Origin: Nitrospira sp.
GTDB lineage: Bacteria > Nitrospirota > Nitrospiria > Nitrospirales > Nitrospiraceae
NCBI GenBank assembly: GCA_016788465.1
Contig: JAEURV010000186.1
Coordinates: 988-64,987, forward strand
Length of the DNA: 64,000 nt
Reading direction: 5' to 3'
Below the pieces are notes generated by a model. It saw only the letters and a list, made by a program, of their open reading frames with translations. It had not been told where the DNA came from and searched no databases. This document shows positions 35,169 through 54,288 of this stretch, piece by piece; positions within the stretch are counted from its first letter, which is position 1; every line of letters starts with the position of its first letter. Both the position numbers and the translations under genes were made by a program.

Positions 35169-35768
35169 ATGACAAAAGAAGAGTTGATTGAATTCGAGGA
35201 AGAAGTCGCCGCGTTATTCAACGCAGGGAAAATTCGCGCCCCCATTCATCTGTACTATGGGAATGAGGAGGCCATCATTGAAGTCTTTCGCGCCATTCGA
35301 GCTCAGGACTGGGTGTTCTGCTCATGGCGGTCTCATTATCAGTGTTTGCTGAAGGGAGTACCGAAGGATCGCGTCCGGGACGAGATCTTGGCCGGACGGT
35401 CGATCTCGCTGTGCTTCCCGGAGCAGCGGGTCTTCTCTTCAGCGATTGTCGGCGGAGTGTTACCGATTGCCGTCGGAGCAGCCATGTCGATTCAGCAGCG
35501 TGGGGAGGACGCCATGGTCTACTGCTTCATGGGAGATATGACGGCTGAGACGGGTATTGCGCATGAATCAATCAAATACAGCCGAAACCACCAGTTGCCG
35601 ATCCGCTTTATCATCGAGGACAACGCAAAATCGGTCTGTACCGATACCAGGGAGACGTGGAATCAGCCTCGACTGACTTATGAAGAAGTCAATGATGAGT
35701 ACATCAGCTACTACCGCTACGAAACGAAGTATCCGCATGCTGGTGCCGGCGTGCGGGTCCAGTTTTAA
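35169..35768 (+). CDS. Thiamine-diphosphate-dependent enzyme, short E1 alpha-like subunit
   Basis: 199 aa. The ThDP-binding GD-x(~27)-N motif is FMGDMTAETGIAHESIKYSRNHQLPIRFIIEDN. Confidence 0.7.
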   Translation: MTKEELIEFEEEVAALFNAGKIRAPIHLYYGNEEAIIEVFRAIRAQDWVFCSWRSHYQCLLKGVPKDRVRDEILAGRSISLCFPEQRVFSSAIVGGVLPIAVGAAMSIQQRGEDAMVYCFMGDMTAETGIAHESIKYSRNHQLPIRFIIEDNAKSVCTDTRETWNQPRLTYEEVNDEYISYYRYETKYPHAGAGVRVQF

Positions 35769-35776
35769 GGTGACCT

Positions 35777-36313
35777 ATGAAATATTTTGATGAGCTGAAG
35801 CGGTCGATGAATTTCTTGGCACAAGATCCACGGACGGTGTTTCTGGGCCAGGCGGTGGCCGTTCCGGGAACAGCCATGAGTAACACGCTCAAGGAAGTGC
35901 CCTCTCATCGATTGATCGAGCTGCCGGTGGCCGAGGAAATGCAAATGGGGATGACGACGGGCCTTGCCCTCACCGGACTTATACCCGTCAGTGTCTTCCC
36001 GAGATGGAATTTTCTGATCTTGGCGATCAACCAGTTGGTCAATCACCTGGACAAGATTCACCTGATGTCCAACGGAGGATACAAGACGAAGGCCATTATC
36101 CGGACGGGAATCGGATCTCAGCGTCCGCTCCATCCGCAGCATCAGCATGTCGGAGACTTTACGGAGGCGATCCGCATGATGTGCAGCACGGTAGAAATCA
36201 TTCGTTTGGAAGAACCCAAAGATGTCTTCCCGGCCTATGAGTGGGCGTTGCAGCGTGAGGATGGACACAGCACGATCATTGTTGAGTACGGAGACTATTA
36301 CAACGAGAAATAA
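35777..36313 (+). CDS. Short E1 beta-like (transketolase pyrimidine-binding domain) subunit
   Basis: 178 aa with RLIELPVAEEMQMGMTTGLALTG (catalytic Glu region). It lacks the C-terminal domain of canonical E1 beta. Sits 8 nt after the alpha-like gene. Confidence 0.7.
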   Translation: MKYFDELKRSMNFLAQDPRTVFLGQAVAVPGTAMSNTLKEVPSHRLIELPVAEEMQMGMTTGLALTGLIPVSVFPRWNFLILAINQLVNHLDKIHLMSNGGYKTKAIIRTGIGSQRPLHPQHQHVGDFTEAIRMMCSTVEIIRLEEPKDVFPAYEWALQREDGHSTIIVEYGDYYNEK

Positions 36314-39391: not shown

Positions 39392-40192
39392 ATGATGCTG
39401 ATTGTTAGACTGTTACATAATGTATATCGTTACCAGTCGATGATCCTGGCTCTTGCAGGTCGAGAGTTACAGAGCCGATACGTGGGGACATTGGGTGGAA
39501 TTCTATGGACGTTCGCACATCCGTTGGCGATCATCACCATCTTTTATTTCGTATTTGCGTTGGGGTTTCGGTCGCAAGGCCCCGATGGCGCTCCCTTCAT
39601 GCTCTGGTTTGTGTGTGGATTGGTTCCCTGGTTTTTTTTTAATGAAACATTGTTGGCTGCGACCGATTCAATTACGCGACATGCTCATTTAATAAAAAAA
39701 ACTGTCTTTCCTTCTGAGATTCTTCCGATGGTGAATATTACTGCGGGTCTTATTCCTCATGCGATCTTTATGCTCATTGTGGCAGGCTTGCTGGTGTGGT
39801 TTGAGGTTTCATTGCTGGCAGGTAGATTGCTGGTCGTCTATTTTCTTCTCTGTACGTGTGTCTTACTTATTGGTCTCAGTTGGCTGCTCTCTGCAATACA
39901 GGTTTTTTATCGTGATGTTTCACATGCCGTATCGATTTTGCTTAACTTGTGGTTCTGGTCGACCCCGATTGTCTGGTCATCGGACATGATACCGGCGGAG
40001 TATCGTGGGTTATTGTTCTATAATCCTATTTACTACATCACTGAAGGGTATCGAGGCTCGTTGGTCTTCGGTGAGCTCGTGTGGCCGAGTGCAGCTCACA
40101 CAGTCTACTTCTGGTTCATTGTGATTGCGATGTTTCTAGTCGGCGCGTACGTATTCAGCAGATTGAAACCAGAATTCGCCGATGTAATGTAG
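39392..40192 (+). CDS. wzm: ABC-2-type polysaccharide export permease
   Basis: 266 aa with six hydrophobic helices. The N-terminal LAGRELQSRYVGTLGGILWTFAHPL signature is typical of Wzm/TagG permeases. Confidence 0.85.
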   Translation: MMLIVRLLHNVYRYQSMILALAGRELQSRYVGTLGGILWTFAHPLAIITIFYFVFALGFRSQGPDGAPFMLWFVCGLVPWFFFNETLLAATDSITRHAHLIKKTVFPSEILPMVNITAGLIPHAIFMLIVAGLLVWFEVSLLAGRLLVVYFLLCTCVLLIGLSWLLSAIQVFYRDVSHAVSILLNLWFWSTPIVWSSDMIPAEYRGLLFYNPIYYITEGYRGSLVFGELVWPSAAHTVYFWFIVIAMFLVGAYVFSRLKPEFADVM

Positions 40193-40200
40193 TTCTTCCC

Positions 40201-41553
40201 ATGCGGCCTTCTCCCGTCGTTCAGGTTCAGAGCGTATCTAAGAAGTTCAGACTCTTCGCTTCTCCGAAGGAGCGTCTTTTTGAAGCACTACACCCGTTTC
40301 GCAAACAGTATCATCACGAGTTTTGGGCGCTACGTAATATTTCCTTTGAGGTTCGGCCAGGGGAAGTTGTCGGTATTCTAGGGAGAAATGGATCCGGGAA
40401 GTCAACCTTGTTGCAGATCGTTTGCGGGGTGATGCAGCCAACGAACGGTGAAGCTCGGGTTGATGGACGAATTGCTGCTTTGCTTGAACTCGGCGCTGGA
40501 TTCAATCCGGAGTTTACAGGGAGAGACAATGTCATTTTGAACGGCGCGATTATGGGATTCTCTCGAAAGGAGATGCTGCGACGGTTGCCAGAGATCGAGG
40601 CCTTTGCTGACATCGGAGAGTTTTTTGACCAACCGGTCAAAACCTACTCATCTGGAATGTTCGTGCGGGTCGCATTTGCAGCCGCAATTCACGTCGACCC
40701 GGATCTCTTGGTGGTGGATGAAGCTCTCGCTGTCGGTGATGCAAAGTTTCAACGCAAATGTCTGCTGCAACTCGAGAAAATTCGCGCAAACGGTGCGGCC
40801 ATTCTCTTTGTCTCCCATAGTTTGGAGACCATTACAAGTCTTTGCAGTCGAGCGATTATCTTGGAAAATGGATCACTCGTTTGCGATGGCCAACCGAAGG
40901 TGGTCGCTGAACAATATCTGACTCTTCTCTTTTCCGAGTCACGAGTGGAGAAACGGAGTGGGTCTTTGAAAGGAGAGCCTGCTTCGGTATCAGATGGTCA
41001 ATATCTTGAGGCAGTCCAATCAACTGGCGGTTCAGTTTGTATTGACGAGTCTATATGGACGGATGTCCCGATTTCTCAAAGGTTTGGGTACAACCGTCAT
41101 GAAATCCGTACAACGAATGGCGGTGCAACCATCATCGACTATGTGATGATGGCAAATGGCCGTACTGACTTCCCGTGCATTGTTTCAGGAACCGCGTTGA
41201 CGATTTTCGTGAAGGCTCAGTTTATGGAGAGTGTCACACAGCCCATTGTCGGGTTTGATTTAAAAACGGACAAAGGAGTTACCATTATATCTTCCAATAC
41301 CTTTCTGTCTCAGACTCCGCTGCGGCATGCTCAGTATGGTGAGACAAGAATTTATCAGCTTGACCTAAGTACACCGTTGAATGAAGGCGATTACTTTATT
41401 GATCTAGGAATAGCTAAGTACGATGGGAGCCAAGGAGGAGCCGTCTTGGACGTCCGACGGTCTATTATACATCTGGTAATCAGTCCTGTGTCGGAGAAGA
41501 GATTCAATGGAATCGTGGATATTGGATTTAGGTTTGGAGAGATCCCTCGATAA
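40201..41553 (+). CDS. wzt: Polysaccharide export ABC ATPase with C-terminal glycan-terminus-binding (Wzt_C-like) beta-sandwich domain
   Basis: Start at ATG 40201 (MRPSPVVQVQSVSKKF). Walker A GRNGSGKST, signature YSSGMFVRVAFA, Walker B LLVVDEALAVGD. A further ~200 aa beta-rich extension (TIIDYVMM..TIFVKAQF..YFIDLGIAKY..IHLVISP) follows. Confidence 0.85.
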   Translation: MRPSPVVQVQSVSKKFRLFASPKERLFEALHPFRKQYHHEFWALRNISFEVRPGEVVGILGRNGSGKSTLLQIVCGVMQPTNGEARVDGRIAALLELGAGFNPEFTGRDNVILNGAIMGFSRKEMLRRLPEIEAFADIGEFFDQPVKTYSSGMFVRVAFAAAIHVDPDLLVVDEALAVGDAKFQRKCLLQLEKIRANGAAILFVSHSLETITSLCSRAIILENGSLVCDGQPKVVAEQYLTLLFSESRVEKRSGSLKGEPASVSDGQYLEAVQSTGGSVCIDESIWTDVPISQRFGYNRHEIRTTNGGATIIDYVMMANGRTDFPCIVSGTALTIFVKAQFMESVTQPIVGFDLKTDKGVTIISSNTFLSQTPLRHAQYGETRIYQLDLSTPLNEGDYFIDLGIAKYDGSQGGAVLDVRRSIIHLVISPVSEKRFNGIVDIGFRFGEIPR

Positions 41554-42871
41554 CACGAGGATCGCCATAGAGCCGCTGTATTCACTTGCCGAAGCATTAG
41601 AGGCAGGAAAGCCTTATTTTGGCCGACGACTATCGGCTTTTCAGAGTCCTCCCATACGGTATGCTTTATTGGCTGGTGTGGCTATTGACGCACTGAAAGG
41701 GAAGCCAAAAATTAGGGTGTTGGAGATAGGTTCGTGGGCGGGAGCATCCTCGATTACATTGGGAACGGTGATTCGCACCCTCGGCATTGCGGATGGTGTC
41801 ATTACTTGCGTCGATCCGTGGGAGCCATATTTTGTGCCGGGAGATGCAGCCATGCACTACAAGAGCATGAACGTCGCGGCTGGGACAGGGGCTATCCAAC
41901 AGTTGTTTCATCACAATATTAGGGCTTGTGGGCTTGTAGGTATGGTCGAGGTCATAAAAGCTGGGGCGCAGGATGTTCTACCATCGTTTGCAGCTGAGTC
42001 ATTCGACTTCATCTATATCGATGGGTCGCATAAGAAAGAAGATGTTTCCCATGACATTGAACAAGCCATGCGGCTGGTCCGTGACGGGGGGACTATTTGT
42101 GGAGACGACTTGGAGTTAGTCAAGGGGGAGATCGATGAGGCCACGCATCGGGACGCGGTGGCACGGAACGTTGATTATGTGGCTGACCCGCGAACAGGAG
42201 CTTCCTATCATCCTGGCGTCACTGAGGCAGTTTGTTCTGCGTTCGTTGACCTCTGGCATGACAAAGGCCTGTGGTGTGTGAAGCGTTCTGGTGGCGAATG
42301 GCATGCTCCTGTCATGCCTATCAAGGATTTAGATATTCCAGTGCACTTGCAACATACAGCGGAAATTCCCTATGGTGTATTTAAGGGGCATGAATTGTTT
42401 CAATTGGGAGAACGGTTCGTGGCCTATCCCGTCAGTCAGCCGCTCTGGTTTCAAAATCGCCTTGTGCAGCGATCACTTGAGGACTTGGTTCTGATGATTG
42501 ACGCGATTGATTGTATAGACCGGCGCAGGGCATCTCGGGAAACAGGTTGTCCGAAGCTAATCGTCGAGGGCTATTGCGGTTTCAATATCGTTCAATACAA
42601 TAACGGTTGGTATGGTTTCGATCAAGCACTAGGCCCGACAGATATCAGAACTCTTGTCGAGTCAGAGATAGAAGTCATGAAGTGTAAGGGAAGTTGCGTG
42701 TCTGGCATAAGTATTGACGATGTTAAGATGGAGGTCCTTCGTATCGTAATGGAGCAACAGGACAGAAAACTTTCAGTTTTCCAGACAGAGGTAGGTGATC
42801 TTAATCAGGCATTTCGGGAGGTGTCCTCAAAAGCTGATTTCGATTCGAGCCTTCACCGAAAAAGAGCTTAA
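41507..42871 (+). CDS. Class I SAM-dependent methyltransferase (Methyltransf_24-like) with two copies of the island-specific C-terminal module
   Basis: IRVLEIGSWAGASSITL and FDFIYIDGSHKKEDVSHDIE. The C-terminal ~165 aa carry GVFKGHELFQLGERFVAYP and GFNIVQYNNGWYGFDQALGPTDI. Overlaps the wzt end by 47 nt. Confidence 0.7.
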   Translation: MESWILDLGLERSLDNTRIAIEPLYSLAEALEAGKPYFGRRLSAFQSPPIRYALLAGVAIDALKGKPKIRVLEIGSWAGASSITLGTVIRTLGIADGVITCVDPWEPYFVPGDAAMHYKSMNVAAGTGAIQQLFHHNIRACGLVGMVEVIKAGAQDVLPSFAAESFDFIYIDGSHKKEDVSHDIEQAMRLVRDGGTICGDDLELVKGEIDEATHRDAVARNVDYVADPRTGASYHPGVTEAVCSAFVDLWHDKGLWCVKRSGGEWHAPVMPIKDLDIPVHLQHTAEIPYGVFKGHELFQLGERFVAYPVSQPLWFQNRLVQRSLEDLVLMIDAIDCIDRRRASRETGCPKLIVEGYCGFNIVQYNNGWYGFDQALGPTDIRTLVESEIEVMKCKGSCVSGISIDDVKMEVLRIVMEQQDRKLSVFQTEVGDLNQAFREVSSKADFDSSLHRKRA

Positions 42872-42874
42872 GTT

Positions 42875-44152
42875 ATGACGGCGTTTGTTCACAAGAATGC
42901 ATCACCATCCTCGCCTCGTCTGTCCATTATTCTATTGGACTGGAGCTGTCGCGAGAGGTTCACCACTCTGGATTGGCTGCTGCGGCAGGATGTGCCGAAG
43001 GATCAGTATGAGCTCATCTGGGTGGAGGTTTATGACCGTGTCGTTGATGAAGTGATGGAAAAAGCCGATGTCGTCATCACGTGCAATCAGCAAGGCATGT
43101 ATCACAAGCATGTGGGGTATAACGCCGGCCTGCTGCAGGCGCGTGGTGACTTGATCTGTGTGTGTGACAGCGATGCGGTGTTCCCTCCTAATTTTGTGCG
43201 ATCGGTACTTCACTCGTTTCACATGGAAGATGGGAGATCGGCTGTTCCGTTGGTGCTCATGCACTACGAATGGCGTACGTCTCTCCTCTATCCGGATGGG
43301 TTAATTGATACTGCGACACTCAAGGACCATGCTCGTTGGAAATGGTGGCCTCTCATCGTGAACGAGGGCGCTTGCATGACTGTGCGTAGGGCTGACGCAA
43401 TCCGGTTTGGAGGTTTTGACGAACATCCCAGTTACAAGGGGTATTTGTGCGGTCCATATGATTTGGGCTGGCGCCTGATTAATGCCGGTTGGCCGGAAGT
43501 GTGGCACGATGAGTCTGTAGCGTTGTGGCACTTTGCGCATCCTGACCCCATTGGGACGAATGGCCAGCGAGCCTCATTGAAGCAGTTGCTGGAAAAGGCC
43601 CACCCTCATATTAATGGCCATGCGTTGACGGCCGTGGAAGCGTTTTCAACGGGGCGATTCCAGCCTCTTCAGGAAAACTTAGACATCTGGAAGTTACGGA
43701 TGAAGAGTCGCCGAATCGGATCCGAACTTGAAACTCGGTATGCCGATTTGACCGGACCAGGTGGATATTCTCCCCGCGCTGTATTGTCCTTGTGGATGTC
43801 TCTGGTGAGAGAGATTGTCGGGCGGTATCTTGCGGATCGCTGGTGGAATCCTATCCGTGAGGTCTTAGTCTCCTTGATGGGACCACGCATCGCGTCAAAA
43901 CTTCGTGCCGTTATTAGAGATCACATTGCTCCGCGCAGAGTCAATCATGAGGTGGCGGCTGACCACCCGACACTGCTCTGTTCTCTACGAGGATATAACA
44001 TTGTGAAGGTTAAGAATGAGTACTATGCTGCTCCTCAGAGTGTTGGAGATCTCGATCTATCGACGGAGGAAGGAAAGGTTCACCCTGATCTACTAGTTGC
44101 TGAAGACTACAAAGTGTTGCTGGAAAAGGTCCATGTAGCATCAAGAGGATAG
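42875..44152 (+). CDS. GT2-like glycosyltransferase with C-terminal island-specific module
   Basis: LSIILLDWSCRERFTTLDWLLRQDVPKDQYELIWVE and CVCDSDAVFPPNF (GT-A/DxD-like). The C-terminus is LRGYNIVKVKNEYYAAPQSVGDLDL. Confidence 0.55.
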   Translation: MTAFVHKNASPSSPRLSIILLDWSCRERFTTLDWLLRQDVPKDQYELIWVEVYDRVVDEVMEKADVVITCNQQGMYHKHVGYNAGLLQARGDLICVCDSDAVFPPNFVRSVLHSFHMEDGRSAVPLVLMHYEWRTSLLYPDGLIDTATLKDHARWKWWPLIVNEGACMTVRRADAIRFGGFDEHPSYKGYLCGPYDLGWRLINAGWPEVWHDESVALWHFAHPDPIGTNGQRASLKQLLEKAHPHINGHALTAVEAFSTGRFQPLQENLDIWKLRMKSRRIGSELETRYADLTGPGGYSPRAVLSLWMSLVREIVGRYLADRWWNPIREVLVSLMGPRIASKLRAVIRDHIAPRRVNHEVAADHPTLLCSLRGYNIVKVKNEYYAAPQSVGDLDLSTEEGKVHPDLLVAEDYKVLLEKVHVASRG

Positions 44153-44184
44153 ACGAAGTATGTATCGAATCAGAGAAGCTTAAG

Positions 44185-44646
44185 ATGGGAACCTCGAGAA
44201 ATTATGATCTTTTTGTGACTCATGCGTGGCGTTTTCATGAGGATTGGACAAAGTTTACGGAACTCATGGACAAGGTGCCGGGAATCTTGTGGCGGAACTT
44301 CAGCTTGCCTTGGCATGATCCTGCAATAAGCCCAAATACGGAAGCAGGGGGGCGATTCATCCGCAGTTCCTTGGAAAGCCAGATCATTCCCGTGCACGTC
44401 GTGGTTTTGCTTGCGGGGGTGTATGAGACGAGGAGCGCTCGAGTGTGGGTCGACATGGAGGTCGAAATGGCAAGGAAACACCGCAAGCCCATTATTGGTA
44501 TGCCTCCTATCAATAAAGAGTCAATTCCGGATGGACTATTGGCACTGTGTGATGCGAGCAGTACTTGGGAGGCGACCAGATTGATAGCCGTTATTGACGA
44601 AGTGCGGTCCCTTCCAACGTATGCATCCAAGCTTTCCGACAGATGA
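44185..44646 (+). CDS. TIR-like domain protein (DUF1863/ThsB-type)
   Basis: 153 aa. YDLFVTHAWRFHEDW at the N-terminus and SARVWVDMEVEMARKHRKPIIGMPP, the S-x-W-x(3)-E-x(2)-A...KPII pattern of TIR-like/DUF1863 proteins. Confidence 0.65.
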   Translation: MGTSRNYDLFVTHAWRFHEDWTKFTELMDKVPGILWRNFSLPWHDPAISPNTEAGGRFIRSSLESQIIPVHVVVLLAGVYETRSARVWVDMEVEMARKHRKPIIGMPPINKESIPDGLLALCDASSTWEATRLIAVIDEVRSLPTYASKLSDR

Positions 44647-44853
44647 TTTCCTTATCGCTGCTGGGAAGCCGGTCAATGAAATGAGAACGGGGCAACCCGG
44701 TATGGTTTGATCAGATACAAACAGTTGATCAATGCCGGACATGGGATTATAAGTAATTATCCAGTCATCATTTCCGACCCTGACAAAGCATCTTCCCGAG
44801 GAAGCACATAACAGTTGTCACACCTATTCACCAACTTGGATATGAGGTGAGTG

Positions 44854-47800
44854 ATGGCCGATACATCCGTCGTTCTGACTCTTCAGAGAGAGCATGCAAC
44901 CACCAAGGTGGAGGGGACACGCGTCGTATTCAGTCCTCATCAATGTTTTGCCTTTGATAATGGGCCAGAGGATGTTGCCTGTCTACATGCGCTTGGGGCG
45001 CACCTCATGACATTGCCGGGCCTTGCCTTGGTCGGTTCGAAGAGATTTATCGATTACCTCCTGCGGCACGCTCCTGATCTTAGGAGTAGGATTGTCGGCA
45101 TGATTTCATATGAAAATCTACCGGAGACTCAGTATCCGCATGGCCTAGCCAGCGTCAAGCTTGGAAGCTTGCCCGTCGAAACGCAAAGCGCGTTTCTCTG
45201 TGAAACGTTGGCGTTCCCACGAATGCAAATGATGAGGCAATTGCCTCAGTCGGTTACTACTATCGATCTCACGGTGTTGGCCGACATTGCGCCCGACGTC
45301 ATTCCTGCCCGAGGCTGGACCCCGTTACCACGCAATATTTATCCAATCGACATTCCAGAGATCCAACTCAGGCAGGAACTGGATGTGGCCATTGTCGATT
45401 GTCCATCACGCAATTTATCCCTGATGCCCAATGGGTTGGGATATTTGAACAATGCGCTGAAGAAGACGTCGGTCTCTTTTCAAATTGTTGATCTCGATAT
45501 CATTTCCTATCATCGGTTTCATGTTCATCGACTGTTCGATATGGGTGGCTGCATCTCGTTACCGGGAGATTTAGTTTTACCGGAGGATCCTTGGCAGGCA
45601 GAGCACTACGATCTTTGGACGGCAACTGGTGGAGGAGCTTCGGGCTCAACGGGGCGCAACGAAGTATTAGAGTTCTTCAGACCGGTCATCGACGAGACGA
45701 TAGCAGCGTTGGTTGCAGCGCGACCAAAAGTTCTGGGGCTCTCTATCCAAGGATGCAATGAGGCTGCGGCGCGCGAGGTTGCGCTTGGAGTGAAGGCTCA
45801 ATTGCCGGATATCATGATCGTGGTGGGTGGGTTCAGTTGCTACAATGCGGATGTCGGGCGCCGCGCATTCCCAGAATGCGACTACATGTGCATCGGTGAA
45901 TCTGATCTCACTGCTGGTCCATTATTAGAAGCATTGGCCAGAGGCGAGCGACCTTTCAATCAGCCTGGTGTACTGTCTCGCTTTGATACGCCCGAATATT
46001 CTTATATCCCCGCACCCATGATTCATAATCTTGATCAGATCGAATTCCCTAAATACGAATGGTGCGATCTGAATGTGTACAGAAACTTCAATGACTACCA
46101 GCTGACGCCCATTATTGCCAGCCGTGGTTGTCGCTGGTCCCGCTGCACGTTCTGCGCTGAACGGTTCTATTGGCGCATTCGCACGAAAGAGAATTTTGTT
46201 GATGAGCTGGAGTGGTTGGTCGGACAGGGCTGCCATCTGTTCATGTTTAACGAGAGCGATCTCGGCGGCATGCCTGAGCGTGTCATGGAAATCTGTGATG
46301 AGATTATTCGTCGTGGACTCCATCGCAAGGTAAAGCTCACCGGCCAATTGCGGGTCAATAAGAAACAAAACCGAGCCTTCTTTGAAAAGCTGCGAGAAGC
46401 CAATTTCGTTGCGCTGCGGTTCGGCATCGACGCTTTTTCTGAGCGCACGTTGCGATTGCAAATGAAGGGGTACACGGTCGATATGATTACCCAGAACCTG
46501 AAGGACTGCTGGGAGGTAGGAATCTTCACTGAGGTCAACTGGGTCATTGGTGTTCCCGGAGAAACCGATCAAGACGTCGAGGAGGGAATCGAGCTTATCC
46601 TGAAGAACCGAAAGTATATCGGACGTCTGGCAAACATCAATCCCCTCATCTTAGTAAACGGCAGCGTTTACTGGATTGATCCGGCATCTCACAACATTGT
46701 GCTCAAGGAACCCAAGGAAATCATGTATGAGAAGTATCCGCGAGCCCTTCCTGCAGATCAGTGGTACAGCACCGATCCCTATATCGATGCACAGGTTCGC
46801 AAAGAGCGCTTTGAGCGTATTGTGCTTGCGCTGCACGACGCGGGATTTCACGTTGGAGCATGGGCCAACCGTGTGATTGAGGACGTGAAACTCAATCGTG
46901 ACAAGGCACGGACCGGGACGTCTGGCACGTCGGTCAGTGCCGGTGAGTTTGAAATTGCTGGCGGAGACAAGGTCCATACTGCTCCCATAGATTCCGAAGA
47001 ACAAACGGCGCTAGAGACTTCAAGCCAGCGAGCGCCTATCACCGACCTTAAACCATCACGGACTACCAAGTTACTGCCGATGCTTCAAGAAGTGGAGATT
47101 GAATCGGAGGATGCAGCTAGACCTTCCGCAGAGCCACCGTTGTTTCAGGTTGCTGGTCAAGCGCCCCGCATGGTGCGTAGAACGGAAACGCATACGATTA
47201 TTTTCTACAATGGCTGGTACTACGGCGTTCCCGCCGCATTAGACAGTATTGACGTGACAAGTCCAGAATCAACCGCAATCGCAGGGCTTCTTCGGTACCC
47301 AACTGAAGAGGAAGTCGTTGCAGCTATAGAGGAGAGCGCCAGATGGGCGAATTCCCGCGGCCAATACGATGATCAGAAGAAACAGCGAACGTCCGGATCC
47401 TACATGCGAGCGGATAGTGTTGGTGAAATGTCTGCCCCCGTCGCGACCGTCACCAAGCCGCGTATTCTGCGGTTCGGCAAGATGTATATCGCCGTGGATC
47501 AGGATGCTCTGAAGGATCCGTTCAGCCGGAGGTCATTTGCCCGAAGAAGAGCTAATGGACAGAAACAGAACAATCGTGATGTCAGTGTCTGGCGACGAAT
47601 GATTGAATTGCTGCCTCCATCTTTTGAAGAGGAGTTGCGTCGTCTCATCCGTCAGGAACGTATTACTAGGGGGAACGGAGCGCACTTAAGCGATCTACAA
47701 CTCGCTGTTATGCTGCCGCGTGCTGTTGCCAAGGCGTATATCAAAGAGCCACTCAGACGTAGTATGCACTTTCTGTCTGGTCGAGGCACCGGTAATGAAT

Positions 47801-48333
47801 CCAGGGTGGGGGTAGACGTGGAAGGAGAAGATTTCTCCATCGTGTCTGTCGTAACGAAGAATGCTCAACCGGAATTGTTGTGGACTATCGGGAATTACAA
47901 TCTCGTGAGGTTTGACGGCCTATTCTACGGGGTTCCGCATGGAGCCTACGTGGAATGGGATTCGGGCTTAATCGCTTCGGTTCCCGGCATGTTGGTCGGT
48001 GACAGCATTGCCGAAGTGGATACTATGATGCGGAAACTTAGAGGGGAAGTGGGTGAGATATCTGTTGCTACAAGCGATGGAGGTTCCCACGCATCGGCTT
48101 TTACGAAAAAACCAATCTTGCTTCGCAGTATGCCGGAGGAAGGGTACGACGTGATCTCATATGAGGGGTGGATCTACGGCATGCCGCATGCTTTAGGACC
48201 TATTGATCTGACCGAGATTGACGTTTTGGAGATGCCGGGTGTTATTCGTGATGTTTCTCGGGATGCGGTAGAAAATGAGATTCTTGCTCTGGCTAGTAAC
48301 AATAACAGGTCGTGCAGTACCGTTGAAGCATGA
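44854..48333 (+). CDS. Giant multidomain B12-binding-type radical SAM protein (unknown N-domain, Rossmann-like domain, radical SAM core, and a long tail with 3-4 island-specific modules)
   Basis: ATG 44854 is preceded by GAGGTGA. VLGLSIQGCNEAAAREVALGVKAQLPDIMIVVGGFSC is B12-domain-like. The radical SAM cluster motif is SRGCRWSRCTFCAE (C-x4-C-x2-C, nt 46129..46155). Tail repeats lie at ~47167, 47455, 47872 and 48124. Confidence 0.8.
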   Translation: MADTSVVLTLQREHATTKVEGTRVVFSPHQCFAFDNGPEDVACLHALGAHLMTLPGLALVGSKRFIDYLLRHAPDLRSRIVGMISYENLPETQYPHGLASVKLGSLPVETQSAFLCETLAFPRMQMMRQLPQSVTTIDLTVLADIAPDVIPARGWTPLPRNIYPIDIPEIQLRQELDVAIVDCPSRNLSLMPNGLGYLNNALKKTSVSFQIVDLDIISYHRFHVHRLFDMGGCISLPGDLVLPEDPWQAEHYDLWTATGGGASGSTGRNEVLEFFRPVIDETIAALVAARPKVLGLSIQGCNEAAAREVALGVKAQLPDIMIVVGGFSCYNADVGRRAFPECDYMCIGESDLTAGPLLEALARGERPFNQPGVLSRFDTPEYSYIPAPMIHNLDQIEFPKYEWCDLNVYRNFNDYQLTPIIASRGCRWSRCTFCAERFYWRIRTKENFVDELEWLVGQGCHLFMFNESDLGGMPERVMEICDEIIRRGLHRKVKLTGQLRVNKKQNRAFFEKLREANFVALRFGIDAFSERTLRLQMKGYTVDMITQNLKDCWEVGIFTEVNWVIGVPGETDQDVEEGIELILKNRKYIGRLANINPLILVNGSVYWIDPASHNIVLKEPKEIMYEKYPRALPADQWYSTDPYIDAQVRKERFERIVLALHDAGFHVGAWANRVIEDVKLNRDKARTGTSGTSVSAGEFEIAGGDKVHTAPIDSEEQTALETSSQRAPITDLKPSRTTKLLPMLQEVEIESEDAARPSAEPPLFQVAGQAPRMVRRTETHTIIFYNGWYYGVPAALDSIDVTSPESTAIAGLLRYPTEEEVVAAIEESARWANSRGQYDDQKKQRTSGSYMRADSVGEMSAPVATVTKPRILRFGKMYIAVDQDALKDPFSRRSFARRRANGQKQNNRDVSVWRRMIELLPPSFEEELRRLIRQERITRGNGAHLSDLQLAVMLPRAVAKAYIKEPLRRSMHFLSGRGTGNESRVGVDVEGEDFSIVSVVTKNAQPELLWTIGNYNLVRFDGLFYGVPHGAYVEWDSGLIASVPGMLVGDSIAEVDTMMRKLRGEVGEISVATSDGGSHASAFTKKPILLRSMPEEGYDVISYEGWIYGMPHALGPIDLTEIDVLEMPGVIRDVSRDAVENEILALASNNNRSCSTVEA

Positions 48334-49202
48334 GGTTATTTCAGAAAAGCAGTTCCACGACTAGTATTTTACAGAACGCCCATCCCTCGTCTTGGCGGGA
48401 GCATCGGTTCGGTTTATCAGGATCCAGATGGGAACGGCTCAAGGGAAAGGATTTTTGGGTGACAGGTGCGGGTACTGGATATGGCCGATGCATTGCGCTT
48501 GCGCTTGCTGCAGCTGGTGCTCGGGTCTTTCTTTCAGGACGACGAGTCGAGAAATTACGTGAAACGGTGGATGAGGGTACGGCACTTGGTATTGATGTAC
48601 GACAGTGTATTGAAGTCCCAGTAGATATTCGATCGGAGGAGGATCTTGTCCGTGCAGTAAAAAATATCCAGCTTGTTACTCCGAGTCTCTATGGGCTGGT
48701 GAACAGCGCCGCCCTTCCTCAATCGGGAGAGGCTGCATTCCCGCTAACCGCTCAAAGTGGGGCCTGTTGGACGAATCTCCTGAACACAAACGTAACCGGT
48801 CAATGGCTGACGTGTAAGGCGGCCATGCCTTTATTAAGTCATGGTGATGGGTTTCGGATTCTCTTTCTGTCCTCATTCGCAGGCTGGGCGTCGACGCCTG
48901 GCTTTGGCCCATACAATATCAGTAAGTCGGCGGTCAATACGCTTGGCGTGTCTCTTGCGGCCGAGTGTGGCGTCAGATATCCCGAGAAGGATGTGCAGAT
49001 CAACGTGTTGGTGCCAGGCGAAGCACGTACTGAAATGAATCAGGGATCAACAGAGAGCCCGTATGCGGTGGTTAGCATGGTGCTGGTTTTGTTGTCGCAT
49101 CCACCGGGAGGTCCCAATGGGTATTTTTTTAGTCGGGATGGACGTCATCTCGCATTTGCCTACACTTCAGAATATCCTCGGTCTCTGTTGACTGTGCACT
49201 AA
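48330..49202 (+). CDS. Short-chain dehydrogenase/reductase (classical SDR)
   Basis: VTGAGTGYGRCIALALAAAGARV (TGxxxGxG) and YNISKSAV (YxxxK). ATGA overlap with the radical SAM gene. Confidence 0.8.
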   Translation: MRLFQKSSSTTSILQNAHPSSWREHRFGLSGSRWERLKGKDFWVTGAGTGYGRCIALALAAAGARVFLSGRRVEKLRETVDEGTALGIDVRQCIEVPVDIRSEEDLVRAVKNIQLVTPSLYGLVNSAALPQSGEAAFPLTAQSGACWTNLLNTNVTGQWLTCKAAMPLLSHGDGFRILFLSSFAGWASTPGFGPYNISKSAVNTLGVSLAAECGVRYPEKDVQINVLVPGEARTEMNQGSTESPYAVVSMVLVLLSHPPGGPNGYFFSRDGRHLAFAYTSEYPRSLLTVH

Positions 49203-49408
49203 TCCCTCACTGTAGCGTATCACATACAACTAGAACCATAGAGTGGTTATCACAGCATGCGTGACGGCTTGGTAATGACATGCGGTGGTGTTGTAGGTAT
49301 GTTGTCAAACTAAAAACGAGGTGTGATGGAGAAGTGTTGCCGGCCATATGGCGATGGAGTTGCGAAGGTGAGGCTTGCGAAAAGGCTTGTGAAGTAACGG
49401 GGAAGTAA

Positions 49409-51403
49409 ATGGCTCGACAATCTTTAAACGTCGCGATTCCTTGGAGCCTTAGTCACTATATTCCGTTGGACGGCTTCCATCCACTGTATCGCCCGTTATT
49501 CGATTATGTCCCGGATAACGTTAAGCTTTCTGCCTGGGATAATGCAAAGCTGTGCGAAAGGTTATCGAGTAACGCCTTCACTCGCAAGAGGGTATTGCAA
49601 GCAATAAAGAGAAAAGAGGACTGCTTTCATCAAGACGAGGGAAGTTCTGTCAAACGAAGGTATGAAGAATACTTCTGGCTGCCCAATCAGGTTCTCACGG
49701 CTGCGCTTGAGGGGGACTTAGAAATTCATCATACAGCTCCGTTCGCATCGCTTACGCGCCCATTTGTTCTGTGCTGTGAGTCGTTCGCACCGGTATTGTT
49801 CCCGTTTGCTCAGCAAGGGAGCGGAACAATAGAGAATGCTGAAGCAGTCAGGGAACTCTATAGAAGGATTCTTGCCAACCCTCTATGCTTGGGAATTTTT
49901 TCTCACGTGCCTGATACCTTGAAAATGCTCAGCTCGTTCTTGTCTGATCCGACTGTCGACCGCAAGCTGTTCCCCTTTGTAGGGGAGGGTGCCGCTGATA
50001 TGAATTCGGTGGTGGACGTCAGTCCAAAAGCGTCTCTCGCTCGACCGCGATTCTTATTTGTTAATTCAGCCAACCAGAATCCGGTGAATTTTTTCCATCG
50101 AGGAGGACATCTCGTCTTGCGTTTTTGGAAGGAGTTTGTCGCAAGTGGCCGTGATGGCCTTTTGATAATGCGATGTGCAAAACCGACGGACTCGAACTTG
50201 TGTGAATATGGTGTGGATGTATCATGGGCACAGACCGAGATTGGCCGGAGCATCATTTGGGATCAAGGCTATCTTGCCGGTCATGAAATGCGTGCGCTGA
50301 TGGAAAGTGCACATTTTTTTCTCCTGCCCAGTGTGTCATTACATTCCGCCTCGATCATGGAGGCTCTGAGGGTGGGTGCAATTCCGGTGGTGTCGGACAC
50401 GGTGGGTACATCCGCCTATATTACGGATGAGGAGCATGGGATTGTACTCCATGGTATGCAAAATGAGGTCTGGCAGAAAGATGAACGAACAGGGATTCTA
50501 GTCGATCAGTATGGTTGCAGGCCGGAGCTCGACCGGTGGCTTGTCGATCAAATGGTCAGGCGCATGTGTGTACTTCTAGAAGATCATGCTATGTATTGGC
50601 GCATGCGAAGCCGTGCAATTGTCCATGCGCAGAGGCGGTTTTCTGATCAGAGATTCGCCGAGCACTTCTGGAACTCTGTTTTTGATTTATTTGCAGAATT
50701 TAGAGGAATGTCCAGGATTGGTAAATCCGTTTCAGGGCCGCTCAGGCCGTTGTTGCGCGAGTGTACGATTCAGAGTGGCGAATGGGCGCGAGTATTTGAG
50801 AGTCCTACGCAACCAATGCTACGAATCAGAACGGGATATGGTACCGTCTGGGAATTGGGCGGTACACTCATTCATGCGTATGGGAATCCGTACATGCGTC
50901 TGAATGATTGGTCGGTATTGGCTCGGTACTGTACCGCCGATGCTCCAGCTACGACCTTTGCTCGAAACTTGAGTGAGCTGGGGGGGAAATACCTACACTC
51001 GCTTCAAGGAAATTCTAAAGGAGTAGGTAGCAAGTTTGTCCGATGGGTTTCACAGGCCCTTCGGCCGTTCCCATCATTCTATACCTATGCTGCTCGAATG
51101 CTAGCCCTTTATCGCCGACATGGAAGATTTAAATTCTTCAAGCCCAGGGTAGAGCCAGAGATTGAGCTAGTACGACAGGGCGTCAAAGGCTACAATGTTA
51201 TTCGCCATCGTGATCGGTTTTACGCAATCCTCCAAGGAGAAGGAGAGTTTTCCCCGGAAAAAGTCGAGGCTGGTGGGTATTCGTCTTATTATTGCGGGCA
51301 ATCTGTCGAAGAGATCATCCGAAGTATCATGATGGCTGATTCAGCTCCCAGGATTGTTTTCAACGACAATGATAGTGAGAGCGCTACCGTAGCAGTAAAG
51401 TAG
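49409..51403 (+). CDS. GT-B-fold glycosyltransferase-like protein with C-terminal extension carrying the island-specific module
   Basis: 664 aa. HFFLLPSVSLHSASIMEALRVGAIPVVSDTVGTSAYITDEEHGIVL resembles the GT1/GT4 nucleotide-sugar-binding region. The tail contains VKGYNVIRHRDRFYAILQGEGEF. Confidence 0.6.
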   Translation: MARQSLNVAIPWSLSHYIPLDGFHPLYRPLFDYVPDNVKLSAWDNAKLCERLSSNAFTRKRVLQAIKRKEDCFHQDEGSSVKRRYEEYFWLPNQVLTAALEGDLEIHHTAPFASLTRPFVLCCESFAPVLFPFAQQGSGTIENAEAVRELYRRILANPLCLGIFSHVPDTLKMLSSFLSDPTVDRKLFPFVGEGAADMNSVVDVSPKASLARPRFLFVNSANQNPVNFFHRGGHLVLRFWKEFVASGRDGLLIMRCAKPTDSNLCEYGVDVSWAQTEIGRSIIWDQGYLAGHEMRALMESAHFFLLPSVSLHSASIMEALRVGAIPVVSDTVGTSAYITDEEHGIVLHGMQNEVWQKDERTGILVDQYGCRPELDRWLVDQMVRRMCVLLEDHAMYWRMRSRAIVHAQRRFSDQRFAEHFWNSVFDLFAEFRGMSRIGKSVSGPLRPLLRECTIQSGEWARVFESPTQPMLRIRTGYGTVWELGGTLIHAYGNPYMRLNDWSVLARYCTADAPATTFARNLSELGGKYLHSLQGNSKGVGSKFVRWVSQALRPFPSFYTYAARMLALYRRHGRFKFFKPRVEPEIELVRQGVKGYNVIRHRDRFYAILQGEGEFSPEKVEAGGYSSYYCGQSVEEIIRSIMMADSAPRIVFNDNDSESATVAVK

Positions 51404-52787: not shown

Positions 52788-53549
52788 TTGAGGAATCTTT
52801 TCCGTAACAGCGTCATCGCTCGGTGGGGTGCGGCTTTTCTTGGACCCCACTTCTTTACAAGCGTCGGAGCATTACCACGCTATCTTTCGGATTGGGGTGT
52901 CTACCAAAGCGCTTCGACACACCCGCTCACTTTGCGCGATTCCTACCCGTGCCTTGCAGATCGTGTCCTCGCCACACCATTCGATCCACACTATTTTTTT
53001 CAGGCTGCGTGGCTCGCCCGGCGGCTGTGCCGGACGACGCCTTCTTTGCATGTTGATGTTGGTTCGAGTGTCATGATGCTCAATGTGTTAAGTGCCGGGA
53101 CCAAGACCGTCTTCGTGGATTACCGTCCGCTGAAGGTTCAACTCTCCAACCTCATCCCGCTTGCTGGAGATATCCTTCGACTGCCGTTTCATACCGGAAG
53201 CATCGCATCATTATCGTGTTTGCATGTGATCGAGCATGTGGGCCTTGGTCGATACGGTGATCCGATCAATCCGTTTGGGAGCCAACTTGCCGCCGCGGAG
53301 CTTCAGCGTGTGCTCGCGATCGGCGGGAAACTGTTTCTGTCAGTGCCGGTTGGTCGTGAGCGGGTCTGTTTCAACGCCCATCGGGTATTTGAGCCAAGCA
53401 CGGTTCGTGGGCTCTTTCAGGGACTTCAGCTTACGTCATTCTCGCTCGTCGACGATGCCGGACGGTTTCATGAGGAGATCTTGCCTGAAGCAATTGATTC
53501 TCTCGATTATGGATGCGGCTGTTTTGAGTTGGTGAAGACGCGTGAGTAG
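52788..53549 (+). CDS. DUF268-type class I SAM-dependent methyltransferase
   Basis: TTG start. LHVDVGSS.., LPFHTGSIASLSCLHVIEHVGLGRYGDPINPFG and GGKLFLSVPVG. Confidence 0.7.
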   Translation: MRNLFRNSVIARWGAAFLGPHFFTSVGALPRYLSDWGVYQSASTHPLTLRDSYPCLADRVLATPFDPHYFFQAAWLARRLCRTTPSLHVDVGSSVMMLNVLSAGTKTVFVDYRPLKVQLSNLIPLAGDILRLPFHTGSIASLSCLHVIEHVGLGRYGDPINPFGSQLAAAELQRVLAIGGKLFLSVPVGRERVCFNAHRVFEPSTVRGLFQGLQLTSFSLVDDAGRFHEEILPEAIDSLDYGCGCFELVKTRE

Positions 53550-54288
53550 CGTACTGCGCACCTGGTTCGCAAAGAGCGACGTATTTTCCTACAACGTCGT
53601 GTTGCGTGACCATTGGATTGCGCAACAGGCTTCGAAGTTGCAGGCCGGAACGAAGCTGCTCGATGTGGGGGCGGGATCTTGTCCCTACCGAACCCTATTC
53701 TCACATTGTGAGTACCGCTCACAGGACTTGCGACCGCTACAGAGTGAGCAATTGCGGTTCGGCGGCTATGGCCACATCGACTACGTGTCAGATCTGGCGG
53801 CCATTCCTGTTCCTGAGAACAGTTTTGATGCGGTACTTTGTACCGAAGTGCTGGAACATCATCCCGAACCGATTAAGGTCGTCCACGAGTTGGCGAGAAT
53901 TGTGCGGCCAGGAGGAACCTTGATCCTGACGGCACCGCTGGGATCGGGAATCCACCAAGAGCCGTACCATTTCTATGGTGGATACACACCCTGGTGGTAT
54001 GAGCGGTTTCTAACGGCTGCTGGATTTGAGGAAATCACGATCGAGCCGAACCAAGGCTCGCTTCGTTTTTTCAGTCAGGAATCGTTGCGCTTCATTCGGT
54101 CGACGAGTCCGTTCGGTTCCGCTATCCCGATCTGGACGCGGGTGTGGTGGCTCCCGATATGGATTGTTTTGTTGCCCGTCCTGGGCGTGATCATACCGGT
54201 ATCATGCACATGGTTGGATCGATTTGACCGCGAGCGACGCTTTACGGTCGGCTACCATGTCACCGCGCGGCGTGCTCGGTCAACGTAA
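53542..54288 (+). CDS. Class I SAM-dependent methyltransferase (Methyltransf_11-like) with C-terminal hydrophobic segment
   Basis: GTG start. LLDVGAGSCPY, FDAVLCTEVLEHHPEP and VRPGGTLILTAP. The C-terminal WWLPIWIVLLPVLGVIIPV is a likely TM helix. Confidence 0.75.
   Translation: MSSVLRTWFAKSDVFSYNVVLRDHWIAQQASKLQAGTKLLDVGAGSCPYRTLFSHCEYRSQDLRPLQSEQLRFGGYGHIDYVSDLAAIPVPENSFDAVLCTEVLEHHPEPIKVVHELARIVRPGGTLILTAPLGSGIHQEPYHFYGGYTPWWYERFLTAAGFEEITIEPNQGSLRFFSQESLRFIRSTSPFGSAIPIWTRVWWLPIWIVLLPVLGVIIPVSCTWLDRFDRERRFTVGYHVTARRARST

What the first reader, a model, noticed from the sequence alone, without database searches (positions are those of the whole stretch)
42371..51331. Unassigned ~50-aa module (GYN[IV][IV]-x6-[FWY]Y[GA]xP-x2-LG-x2-D ... 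acidic helix) recurs 8-9 times on four different enzymes of the island
Copies, read directly from the translations:
- Methyltransferase 41507..42871: EGYCGFNIVQYNNGWYGFDQALGPTDIRTL (~42560..42748), plus a weaker copy GVFKGHELFQLGERFVAYPVSQPL (~42371..42505).
- GT2-like 42875..44152: LRGYNIVKVKNEYYAAPQSVGDLDLSTEE (~43976..44134).
- Radical SAM 44854..48333: THTIIFYNGWYYGVPAALDSIDVTS (~47167..47334), GNYNLVRFDGLFYGVPHGAYVEWDS (~47872..48036), EGYDVISYEGWIYGMPHALGPIDLTEIDV (~48124..48294), and a degenerate PRILRFGKMYIAVDQDAL (~47455..47520).
- GT-B 49409..51403: VKGYNVIRHRDRFYAILQGEGEFSPEKVE (~51176..51331), and possibly TGYGTVWELGGTLIHAYG upstream.

Most copies run about 20 aa later into a helix-like acidic stretch (TEEEVVAAIEE, SIAEVDTMMRKL, SRDAVENEILALA, SIDDVKMEVLRIV, EDYKVLLEKV, SVEEIIRSIM). 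The module always lies outside and C-terminal to the catalytic fold. I cannot place it in any named domain family.

One add-on shared by a methyltransferase, two glycosyltransferases and a radical SAM enzyme, all encoded next to wzm/wzt, suggests a common docking or targeting device. It could assemble a multi-enzyme O-antigen tailoring complex on the transporter, on each other, or on the glycan terminus.
Basis: seen in the sequence. Interest (0 to 1): 0.8.

Follow-up and report, generated by a model that had tools for sequence, protein, structure and literature searches.

The report
Unannotated repeat module on glycan-assembly enzymes
A real, previously unannotated ~60-residue protein module recurs on four different sugar-polymer-building enzymes in this island and on more than a thousand related protein families elsewhere, including the polymer exporter itself, so it probably holds the assembly line together or onto its product.

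Summary
The window holds exactly six significant copies of a ~60-aa module: one each on the methyltransferase, GT2 and GT-B enzymes, and three on the B12-radical-SAM enzyme. Two degenerate copies are probable. One proposed copy (GT-B aa 475-492) is not supported.

The module is not a local oddity. A profile of the six copies finds 1,157 protein-cluster representatives, with up to 13 tandem copies per protein. Named hits come from Nitrospirota, Nitrospinota, Alpha- and Gammaproteobacteria. Partner domains are nearly all glycan-tailoring enzymes, and neighbours are Wzm/Wzt(+Wzt_C) and sugar-nucleotide genes.

Pfam, NCBIfam, PDB sequences, and Foldseek against PDB and BFVD give no significant match to a confident AlphaFold2 model (pLDDT 87; three strands, loop, fourth strand, helix).

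New facts bear on function:
- The module also occurs in exported lipoproteins and on multi-pass membrane proteins.
- In some Wzt exporters it sits between the ATPase and Wzt_C.
- It forms the connector in fusions of the window's own enzymes (GT2-modules-GT-B; MT-modules-GT2).

The best reading is a non-catalytic assembly/docking module of glycan assembly lines. A glycan-binding tether is a close rival. Function is untested.

The parts
42551..42742 (+). Module copy on the Methyltransf_24 methyltransferase (ORF 41507-42871, aa ~349-412). It contains a ~10-aa insertion before strand 4.
   Evidence: A4 HMM E=5.3e-13; leave-one-out E=1.6e-5; 0/1000 shuffles reach the real score.
42380..42514 (+). 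Probable degenerate module copy on the methyltransferase (aa ~292-336).
   Evidence: Not found by HMM search. hhalign against the 136-copy profile aligns 45 columns, hairpin plus helix, P=7e-5, probability 63%.
43967..44134 (+). Module copy at the C-terminus of the GT2-like glycosyltransferase (ORF 42875-44152, aa ~365-420).
   Evidence: A4 HMM E=2.5e-17; leave-one-out E=1.5e-4; 0/1000 shuffles.
47164..47340 (+). Module copy 1 of the B12-binding radical SAM enzyme (ORF 44851-48333, aa ~772-830). It is of the 'HTIxFY' subtype and is followed by a conserved W-x-N-SRGQYD extension.
   Evidence: A4 HMM E=4.2e-16. Positional orthologues at 44-61% identity in many rSAM relatives.
47428..47505 (+). 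Probable half-module (three-strand part only) of the radical SAM enzyme (aa ~860-885).
   Evidence: hhalign of a 31-orthologue profile against the module profile matches positions 1-26, P=2.4e-5, probability 76%. Not detected by HMM search.
47866..48039 (+). Module copy 2 of the radical SAM enzyme (aa ~1006-1063), 'PHG..DW' subtype.
   Evidence: A4 HMM E=2.7e-16. Conserved as the penultimate copy in orthologues.
48112..48291 (+). Module copy 3 of the radical SAM enzyme (aa ~1088-1147), 'PxALGxxDL' subtype. This copy was used as the target for the structure model.
   Evidence: A4 HMM E=4.7e-18. 53-81% identical in relatives that are <50% identical overall. AlphaFold2 pLDDT 87.2.
51164..51337 (+). 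Module copy near the C-terminus of the GT-B (GT1/GT4-like) glycosyltransferase (ORF 49409-51403, aa ~586-643), 'QGEGxF..GGY' subtype.
   Evidence: A4 HMM E=2e-17; leave-one-out E=0.035; 0/1000 shuffles.
39392..41553 (+). Context: wzm (ABC-2 permease, 39392-40192) and wzt (ABC ATPase + Wzt_C glycan-terminus-binding domain, ~40198-41553), directly upstream of the four module-bearing genes. This Wzt has no module.
   Evidence: Pfam ABC2_membrane 9.5e-14; ABC_tran 3.2e-22; Wzt_C 7e-24. No module hit.
44185..49202 (+). Context: conserved cassette of a TIR-like small protein (44185-44646), the B12-rSAM with modules (44851-48333) and an SDR (48330-49202, overlapping the rSAM stop codon).
   Evidence: Pfam. 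The same order on one strand recurs in many external loci.

Best explanation
The module is a previously unannotated, autonomously folding ~60-residue domain. Its predicted layout is three antiparallel strands, a conserved L-G-x-x-D loop, a fourth strand and a C-terminal helix. Its signature is P-x-L-[VLI]-x5-[YFH]-N-[ILV]-[VI]-x-[YF]-x3-[FY]-Y-[GA]-[IVL]-P-[QH]-x-L-G-x2-D ... [ST]-x2-E-V-x3-I.

It is a non-catalytic accessory module of polysaccharide assembly lines, mostly of the Wzm/Wzt ABC-exporter type. The most likely mechanism is that modules contact one another, or a common partner protein. This would hold separately encoded tailoring and extension enzymes (here the methyltransferase, GT2, B12-radical-SAM and GT-B enzymes) together as one membrane-proximal complex, and in some systems attach them to the Wzt exporter. 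On this view the module does non-covalently what tandem module arrays do covalently in organisms where the same enzymes are fused.

Shown: the module is real, widespread, of unassigned fold and restricted to glycan contexts, and the fusions and the Wzt insertion exist. Inferred: that it binds protein rather than glycan, and that the contacts are module-to-module.
For: - Real and recurrent. The six-copy profile finds 1,157 representatives at E<=1e-3 and 487 at E<=1e-10, with up to 13 copies per protein.
- Partner domains among 103 informative hits are GT2 12, Methyltransf_24 10, radical SAM 11 (9 with SPASM), GT1/GT4 9, sulfotransferase 2, acyltransferase_3 2, pyruvyl transferase 1, YfhO 1.
- 27 of 73 module loci encode 2-4 different module-bearing proteins.
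- Neighbours are Wzt_C-type ABC exporters and sugar-nucleotide enzymes.
- Rosetta-stone fusions join homologues of the window's own enzymes through module arrays: GT2-(3 to 7 modules)-GT-B in P0029, P0031, P0032 and P0099, and MT-(4 modules)-GT2 in P0101.
- Wzt homologues in L028 and L058 have ATPase-module-Wzt_C. A dedicated glycan-binding domain is already present there, which makes a second glycan binder less necessary.
- Complete module-only proteins exist and could act as adaptors.
- Each copy position in the rSAM family keeps its own conserved identity. The terminal copy is 53-81% identical, which suggests specific partners rather than generic avidity.
- In the window, only the four enzymes encoded next to wzt carry the module. 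Nucleotide-sugar enzymes and other GTs and MTs of the island lack it.
- Established background: enzymes of ABC-dependent O-polysaccharide pathways form multiprotein complexes with catalytic modules variably split or fused (PMC11231755).
Against: - No interaction was tested; no multimer prediction was available.
- Every line of evidence above is also compatible with a glycan-binding tether. CBMs likewise sit between catalytic domains, come in variable tandem numbers and occur as stand-alone proteins.
- All six window copies are acidic (net -2 to -8), so they show no charge complementarity with one another.
- Copies on different genes of one locus are no more alike than random pairs (27.4% vs 28.9% identity), so there is no sign of cluster-level co-adaptation.
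- Some long loci show only one module-bearing gene (L090, L099, L109).
- The module occurs on both sides of the membrane, and the glycan is the only component obviously common to both sides.
Confidence: 0.4

Rival explanations
1. Glycan-binding tether (CBM-like). The module binds the nascent or exported polysaccharide, or a common epitope of it. This keeps tailoring enzymes, the exporter and periplasmic factors on their polymeric substrate.
For: - Carriers of unrelated folds share only that they act on a glycan.
- The module is found in the cytoplasm (rSAM, MT), in exported lipoproteins and signal-peptide proteins, and on 8-12-TM membrane proteins. In an ABC-exporter pathway the same polymer is present on both sides of the membrane.
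- Copy number varies from 1 to 13 in tandem arrays, as with polymer-binding repeats.
- Conserved aromatic and polar positions (Y13, N14, Y18, F/Y22, Y23, Q/H27, D33 in model numbering) are of the kinds used for sugar binding.
- Enzymes acting on soluble nucleotide sugars lack the module.
Against: - The small alpha/beta fold is unlike the beta-sandwich typical of known CBMs, and there is no structural match to any CBM in the PDB.
- In L028 and L058 the module sits next to Wzt_C, which already binds the glycan terminus.
- One subtype is very strongly conserved across many organisms, although O-type glycans usually vary.
- The conserved residues may simply be core or turn residues; no coordinates were available to check exposure.
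Confidence: 0.3
2. Rigid spacer or molecular ruler. Tandem modules form a rod that sets the distance between catalytic domains or from the membrane, like the coiled coil of WbdD/WbbB that sets chain length.
For: - Long arrays have 3-5-residue linkers and a regular 60-65-aa period (P0009, P0012).
- Arrays lie between two catalytic domains in the fusions.
- The L028 sulfotransferase combines modules with a long coiled coil.
- Rulers are a known feature of these pathways (PMC11231755).
Against: - Single copies at the extreme C-terminus, as on the window's GT2 and GT-B, have nothing to space.
- Module-only lipoproteins exist.
- A strongly conserved motif with polar residues, and position-specific subtypes, are not needed for a spacer.
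- Long disordered linkers precede the window's rSAM copies.
Confidence: 0.1
3. Chance similarity or low-complexity artefact; not a real domain.
For: Pairwise identity between window copies is only 15-32%.
Against: - Leave-one-out detection and 0/1000 shuffles.
- A 12-order E-value gap to background.
- 1,157 external protein clusters.
- A confident AlphaFold2 model.
Confidence: 0.01

Closest known systems
Wzt C-terminal carbohydrate-binding domain (Pfam Wzt_C, PF14524)
   Same: A non-catalytic add-on in Wzm/Wzt O-polysaccharide pathways. It is cytoplasmic and couples the finished glycan to the machinery. It is present in the window's Wzt and in 7 neighbour ORFs of module loci.
   Different: Wzt_C is a ~140-aa domain found on the exporter only. 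The module is ~60 aa, gives no HMM match to Wzt_C, occurs on many enzyme classes, and co-exists with Wzt_C in one polypeptide in L028 and L058.
WbdD / WbbB-type coiled-coil scaffold and polymerase-recruitment region of ABC-dependent O-antigen assembly (E. coli O9a, Klebsiella O12/O4/O7)
   Same: It provides protein-protein assembly of terminator and polymerase modules that are variably split or fused between species (PMC11231755). The module arrays occupy the same inter-enzyme position in the fusions.
   Different: Those scaffolds are coiled coils plus an amphipathic helix. The module is a beta-rich globular repeat, sits on several enzymes at once, and also occurs in exported proteins.
Accessory modules of carbohydrate-active enzymes (CBMs; dockerin-cohesin of cellulosomes)
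   Same: Small non-catalytic domains shared by unrelated catalytic folds, in variable tandem numbers and as stand-alone scaffold proteins, joined by flexible linkers.
   Different: No sequence or fold match to any of them. The module is mostly cytoplasmic and attached to biosynthetic rather than degradative enzymes. The same module type is on both enzymes and arrays, rather than a two-fold dockerin/cohesin pair.
Docking domains of split PKS/NRPS assembly lines
   Same: Terminal add-ons that replace a covalent link when modules fused in one organism are separate proteins in another. This parallels the logic.
   Different: Those are short helical peptides with no homology to the module. This is a conceptual analogy only.

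Membership tests
Any Pfam-A family (2025 copy) | HMM match at or above the gathering score over the module | tested here: not met
   There is no hit over the tails of the four window proteins at E<=1. Among 136 diverse copies no family matches more than 3 copies, best E 0.003. The DUF3310, DUF5749 and CD1375-like hits are repeat-summed scores with no individually significant stretch.
Any NCBIfam family (release 20) | HMM match over the module | tested here: not met
   Only the catalytic regions match.
Any solved structure (PDB) | Sequence-profile or fold similarity | tested here: not met
   Profile search: best E 0.024, on a transmembrane segment of KimA, which is spurious. Foldseek with the pLDDT-87 model: best E 0.45, TM <=0.43. 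Foldseek is weak for 65-residue domains, and the AlphaFold DB was not available.
Wzt_C carbohydrate-binding domain | ~140-aa domain matching PF14524, fused to the Wzt ATPase | tested here: not met
   The module is ~60 aa with no PF14524 match. In L028 and L058 the two are separate adjacent domains.
Carbohydrate-binding module (functional class) | Demonstrated binding to a carbohydrate ligand | not testable with these tools
   This needs ITC, a glycan array or an affinity gel with purified module and the cognate polysaccharide.
Coiled-coil molecular ruler (WbdD/WbbB type) | Extended heptad-repeat alpha-helical coiled coil | tested here: not met
   The predicted structure has four strands plus one 14-residue helix.
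Protein-protein docking module (functional class) | Direct, module-dependent association between carrier proteins | not testable with these tools
   Only indirect support is available: the fusions, multi-gene co-occurrence and the Wzt insertion.
Small uncharacterised phage proteins (BFVD) | Shared fold | tested here: inconclusive
   The best BFVD matches have E 0.11-0.3 and TM 0.5-0.74, to 50-70-aa uncharacterised proteins. tblastn of a four-module array against 50,697 phage records found nothing.

The most novel reading that the evidence does not exclude
The module is a universal self-associating 'connector' of bacterial glycan assembly lines. Its conserved subtypes (PxxLGxxD, PHG..DW, QGEGxF..GGY, HTIxFY) would form a pairing code that specifies which enzyme docks where. 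Through the Wzt-inserted copy and the periplasmic lipoprotein and membrane-protein copies, this code would organise synthesis, export and post-export tailoring on both faces of the inner membrane.
Probability: 0.15. Interest if true: 0.85.

Novelty: new variant of a known kind. Interest (0 to 1): 0.66.

Why it matters
How the soluble enzymes of ABC-exporter-dependent polysaccharide pathways find each other, the membrane and the exporter is only partly understood, even in the E. coli and Klebsiella models. There the known solutions are coiled-coil scaffolds and poorly mapped recruitment sites (PMC11231755).

This module is a discrete, easily recognised domain shared by methyltransferases, GT2 and GT4 glycosyltransferases, radical SAM enzymes, sulfotransferases, membrane glycosyl- and acyltransferases, stand-alone lipoproteins and some Wzt exporters. 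It offers a concrete, testable handle on that question.

It would also give an annotation to more than a thousand 'hypothetical' regions. It marks which enzymes of a glycan cluster act on the polymer or in the complex, as opposed to making precursors. It occurs in a cultured, tractable bacterium, Azospirillum lipoferum 4B, where it can be deleted or swapped.

Tried and rejected
- The search for homologous proteins with the module profiles and with a four-module protein returned only a few short fragments, because the word index limits it for such a short, divergent query. It was of little use beyond naming Nitrospira and Nitrospina sources.
- My degenerate DNA pattern for genome contigs had one N too many and was out of frame. 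Its three hits (L001-L003) are chance matches and the single genome scan was wasted. The corrected pattern was validated on the window and used on metagenomes. Of its 101 loci, 28 are chance matches without the module.
- The first structure model, from six sequences with the MT copy as target, was only moderate (pLDDT 76.5) and its fold search was uninformative. It was replaced by the 136-sequence model.
- A chromodomain, SH3 or KOW-like resemblance (three strands plus a helix) was considered and dropped, because Foldseek found no such PDB match.
- Direct membrane binding was considered unlikely. 67% of 713 copies are acidic, and lipoprotein versions are already membrane-anchored.
- Cluster-level co-adaptation of copies was tested and not found.
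- Literature searches found no description of the module.
- hhsearch against Pfam or ECOD and Foldseek against AlphaFold DB could not be run.
Full report
**Observation.**
- a Methyltransf_24 methyltransferase (41507-42871);
- a GT2-like enzyme (42875-44152);
- a small TIR-like protein (44185-44646);
- an 1160-aa B12-binding radical SAM enzyme (44851-48333);
- an SDR (48330-49202);
- a GT-B enzyme (49409-51403).

They lie directly downstream of wzm (39392-40192) and of wzt, which carries a Wzt_C domain. All quoted peptides are present. Aligning the six clear copies gives a ~60-residue unit.

**Statistics.** HMMs built without a given protein's copies recover that protein as the top non-training hit among 1,261 six-frame segments of the window: MT 1.6e-5, GT2 1.5e-4, rSAM 1.6e-5, GT-B 0.035. 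No shuffle out of 1000 per copy reaches the real score. An HMM made mostly of external copies scores the six at 5e-13 to 5e-18, and the next window segment scores 1.5. The window therefore has exactly six significant copies and none outside the four proteins.

Profile-profile comparison gives a graded result:
- MT aa ~292-336 is supported as a degenerate full copy (P 7e-5, probability 63%).
- rSAM aa ~860-885 is supported as a conserved half-copy (P 2.4e-5, probability 76%, 31 orthologues).
- GT-B aa 475-492 is rejected (probability 0.6%).

**What the module is.** Pfam, NCBIfam and PDB sequences give no meaningful match. With a 136-copy alignment, AlphaFold2 gives a confident model (pLDDT 87.2, pTM 0.69). 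It has strands at positions 3-8, 13-18 and 21-26, a loop carrying the conserved L-G-x-x-D, a short strand at 46-48 and a helix at 51-64. Foldseek finds no significant neighbour in the PDB (best E 0.45). In BFVD it finds only weak similarity to tiny uncharacterised phage proteins (best E 0.11). The most conserved columns are P2, L4, [YFH]13, N14, I15, V16, [YF]18, [FY]22, Y23, [GA]24, P26, G30, D33, [ST]50, V54 and I58. The [ST]-x-x-E pattern fits a helix N-cap.

**Distribution.** A full HMMER scan of 1.84 billion cluster representatives with the six-copy profile finds 1,157 proteins at E<=1e-3, 487 at <=1e-10 and 61 at <=1e-30, with up to 13 tandem copies (mapped).

Named sources are Nitrospira sp., Candidatus Magnetobacterium bavaricum, Methylobacter sp., Nitrospina sp. 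and Azospirillum. Most hits are metagenomic 'hypothetical proteins'.

Partner domains among the 103 informative top hits are almost all glycan-tailoring:

| Partner domain | Hits |
|---|---|
| GT2 | 12 |
| Methyltransf_24 | 10 |
| Radical SAM | 11 (9 with SPASM) |
| GT1/GT4 | 9 |
| Sulfotransferase | 2 |
| Acyltransferase_3 | 2 |
| Pyruvyl transferase | 1 |
| YfhO | 1 |
| NRPS-like A-T-TE | 1 |

A corrected degenerate DNA pattern retrieved 101 metagenomic loci. 73 of them have true modules, and 27 encode two to four different module-bearing proteins.

Homologues of window genes occur in module loci but in none of the 31 control loci (28 pattern-only metagenome loci plus the 3 chance genome hits): Wzm 10/73, B12-rSAM 27/73, SDR 19/73, TIR-like 12/73, GT2 14/73.

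Pfam on 126 neighbouring ORFs shows ABC_tran 8, Wzt_C 7, ABC2_membrane 4, SDRs, epimerases, DegT, transketolase-like proteins and more B12-rSAMs.

**Facts bearing on mechanism.**
1. Compartment. Complete module-only proteins exist. Some have lipoprotein or signal peptides (L062/L073 = the P0085 cluster, L069, P0070, P0015, P0053, P0083, P0130, P0152). About 17 of 130 top hits are 8-12-TM membrane proteins with C-terminal modules. The radical SAM and SAM-dependent enzymes are cytoplasmic. The module therefore works on both sides of the membrane.
2. Exporter. Wzt homologues in L028 and L058 have ATPase-module-Wzt_C. The window's Wzt has no module.
3. Fusions. Homologues of the window's separately encoded enzymes are fused through module arrays elsewhere: GT2-(3-7 modules)-GT-B in P0029, P0031, P0032 and P0099, and MT-(4 modules)-GT2 in P0101.
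4. Copy identity. Copies within one protein average 39.6% identity. Copies on different genes of one locus (27.4%) are no closer than copies from unrelated loci (28.9%). In the B12-rSAM family the order rS1-type, rS2-type, rS3-type is conserved, and the terminal copy stays 53-81% identical. Copies are therefore ancient and position-specific.
5. Charge. 67% of 713 copies are acidic, and the window's copies have net charges of -2 to -8. This argues against direct binding to anionic membranes.
6. Selectivity in the window. Only the four enzymes next to wzt carry the module. A second B12-rSAM, a GHMP kinase, epimerases, DegT, the transketolase-like pair, two small methyltransferases and three further GTs do not.

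**Interpretation.** In the E. coli and Klebsiella models, enzymes of ABC-dependent O-polysaccharide assembly form multiprotein complexes. Their catalytic modules are variably split or fused, a coiled-coil terminator acts as scaffold, and a CBM on Wzt checks the capped terminus (PMC11231755).

The module fits into that logic as a different, globular solution. I favour an assembly/docking role, through module-module or module-partner contacts (confidence 0.4). The reasons are the fusions, the multi-gene co-occurrence, the insertion next to an existing glycan-binding domain in Wzt, and the position-specific conservation.

A glycan-binding tether is nearly as likely (0.3). It best explains the presence on both sides of the membrane and the variable tandem copy number. 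A rigid spacer or ruler is possible for the long arrays (0.1) but does not explain single terminal copies or lipoproteins. None of these was tested directly; both structure-prediction jobs went to monomer models.

**Comparison and novelty.** The module is not a member of Wzt_C, of any CBM, dockerin, coiled-coil or other Pfam/NCBIfam family, or of any PDB fold that the tools could detect. Functionally it belongs to the known kind 'non-catalytic accessory module of carbohydrate-active enzymes or assembly lines'. As a domain family, and in its spread across biosynthetic enzymes, the exporter and periplasmic proteins, it appears to be undescribed. I rate it a new variant of a known kind.

**Caveats.**
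- hhsearch against Pfam/ECOD and Foldseek against AlphaFold DB were not available.
- Only the top 150 of the 1,157 hits were examined. They are biased towards multi-copy proteins.
- Signal-peptide and TM calls are heuristic.
- One database scan was lost to my own pattern error.

Noticed in passing
window 44185-49202; also L030, L062, L073, L097, L100 and others: A conserved three-gene cassette lies on one strand: a small TIR-like protein (ThsB_TIR/PF08937 match), the B12-radical SAM enzyme with modules, and an SDR. In the window the SDR start overlaps the rSAM stop (48330-48333). The role of a TIR/flavodoxin-like protein next to a radical SAM enzyme is unexplained.
   Followed up: partly
window ~47340-47505 (rSAM aa ~830-885): After the first (HTIxFY-type) copy comes a conserved extension, W-x-[ND]-SRGQ-[YFW]-[DN] ... 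[YF]-x-[RK]-[AV]-x-S, then a half-module hairpin. The same composite recurs in many orthologues. Its function is unknown.
   Followed up: partly
L028 3191-4222 (-) and L058 514-1323 (-): These Wzt exporter homologues have the module inserted between the ABC ATPase and the Wzt_C glycan-terminus-binding domain. L028 1128-3101 (-) encodes a sulfotransferase with two modules and a long C-terminal coiled coil, which resembles a chain terminator with a ruler.
   Followed up: partly
L112 (Azospirillum lipoferum 4B plasmid AZO_p6, NC_016588.1, 25364-30401): Two adjacent genes in a cultured bacterium each carry two modules. One is the GT2 WP_162488533.1. The other is WP_244442704.1, annotated 'adenylyl-sulfate kinase', which has an unknown ~500-aa N-terminal region, two modules and an APS-kinase domain. 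They lie in a cluster with sulfotransferases, a radical SAM enzyme, GDP-fucose synthase, DegT and transketolase genes.
   Followed up: partly
window 31542-33089 and 35169-36313; L109 12204-14660: The island has a second B12-radical SAM enzyme without the module and a split transketolase-like pair (E1_dh + Transket_pyr). In L109 a transketolase is fused to a B12-radical SAM enzyme (818 aa). Transketolase-like genes recur near module loci, which hints at a branched or two-carbon-extended sugar.
   Followed up: no
window 44851-45660 (rSAM aa 1-270): The radical SAM enzyme has a ~270-aa N-terminal extension before the B12-binding domain, with no Pfam or NCBIfam match.
   Followed up: no
window 52788-53549: A 253-aa ORF matches DUF268 (a methyltransferase-like family named from Caenorhabditis). 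It sits next to another small methyltransferase-like ORF (53542-54288). This gene pair recurs in L035, L038, L087 and L098.
   Followed up: no
P0021 (1270 aa, metagenomic): An NRPS-like adenylation / carrier protein / thioesterase protein ends in four rS3-type modules. It is the only clearly non-glycosyl partner architecture seen, and may acylate a glycan.
   Followed up: no
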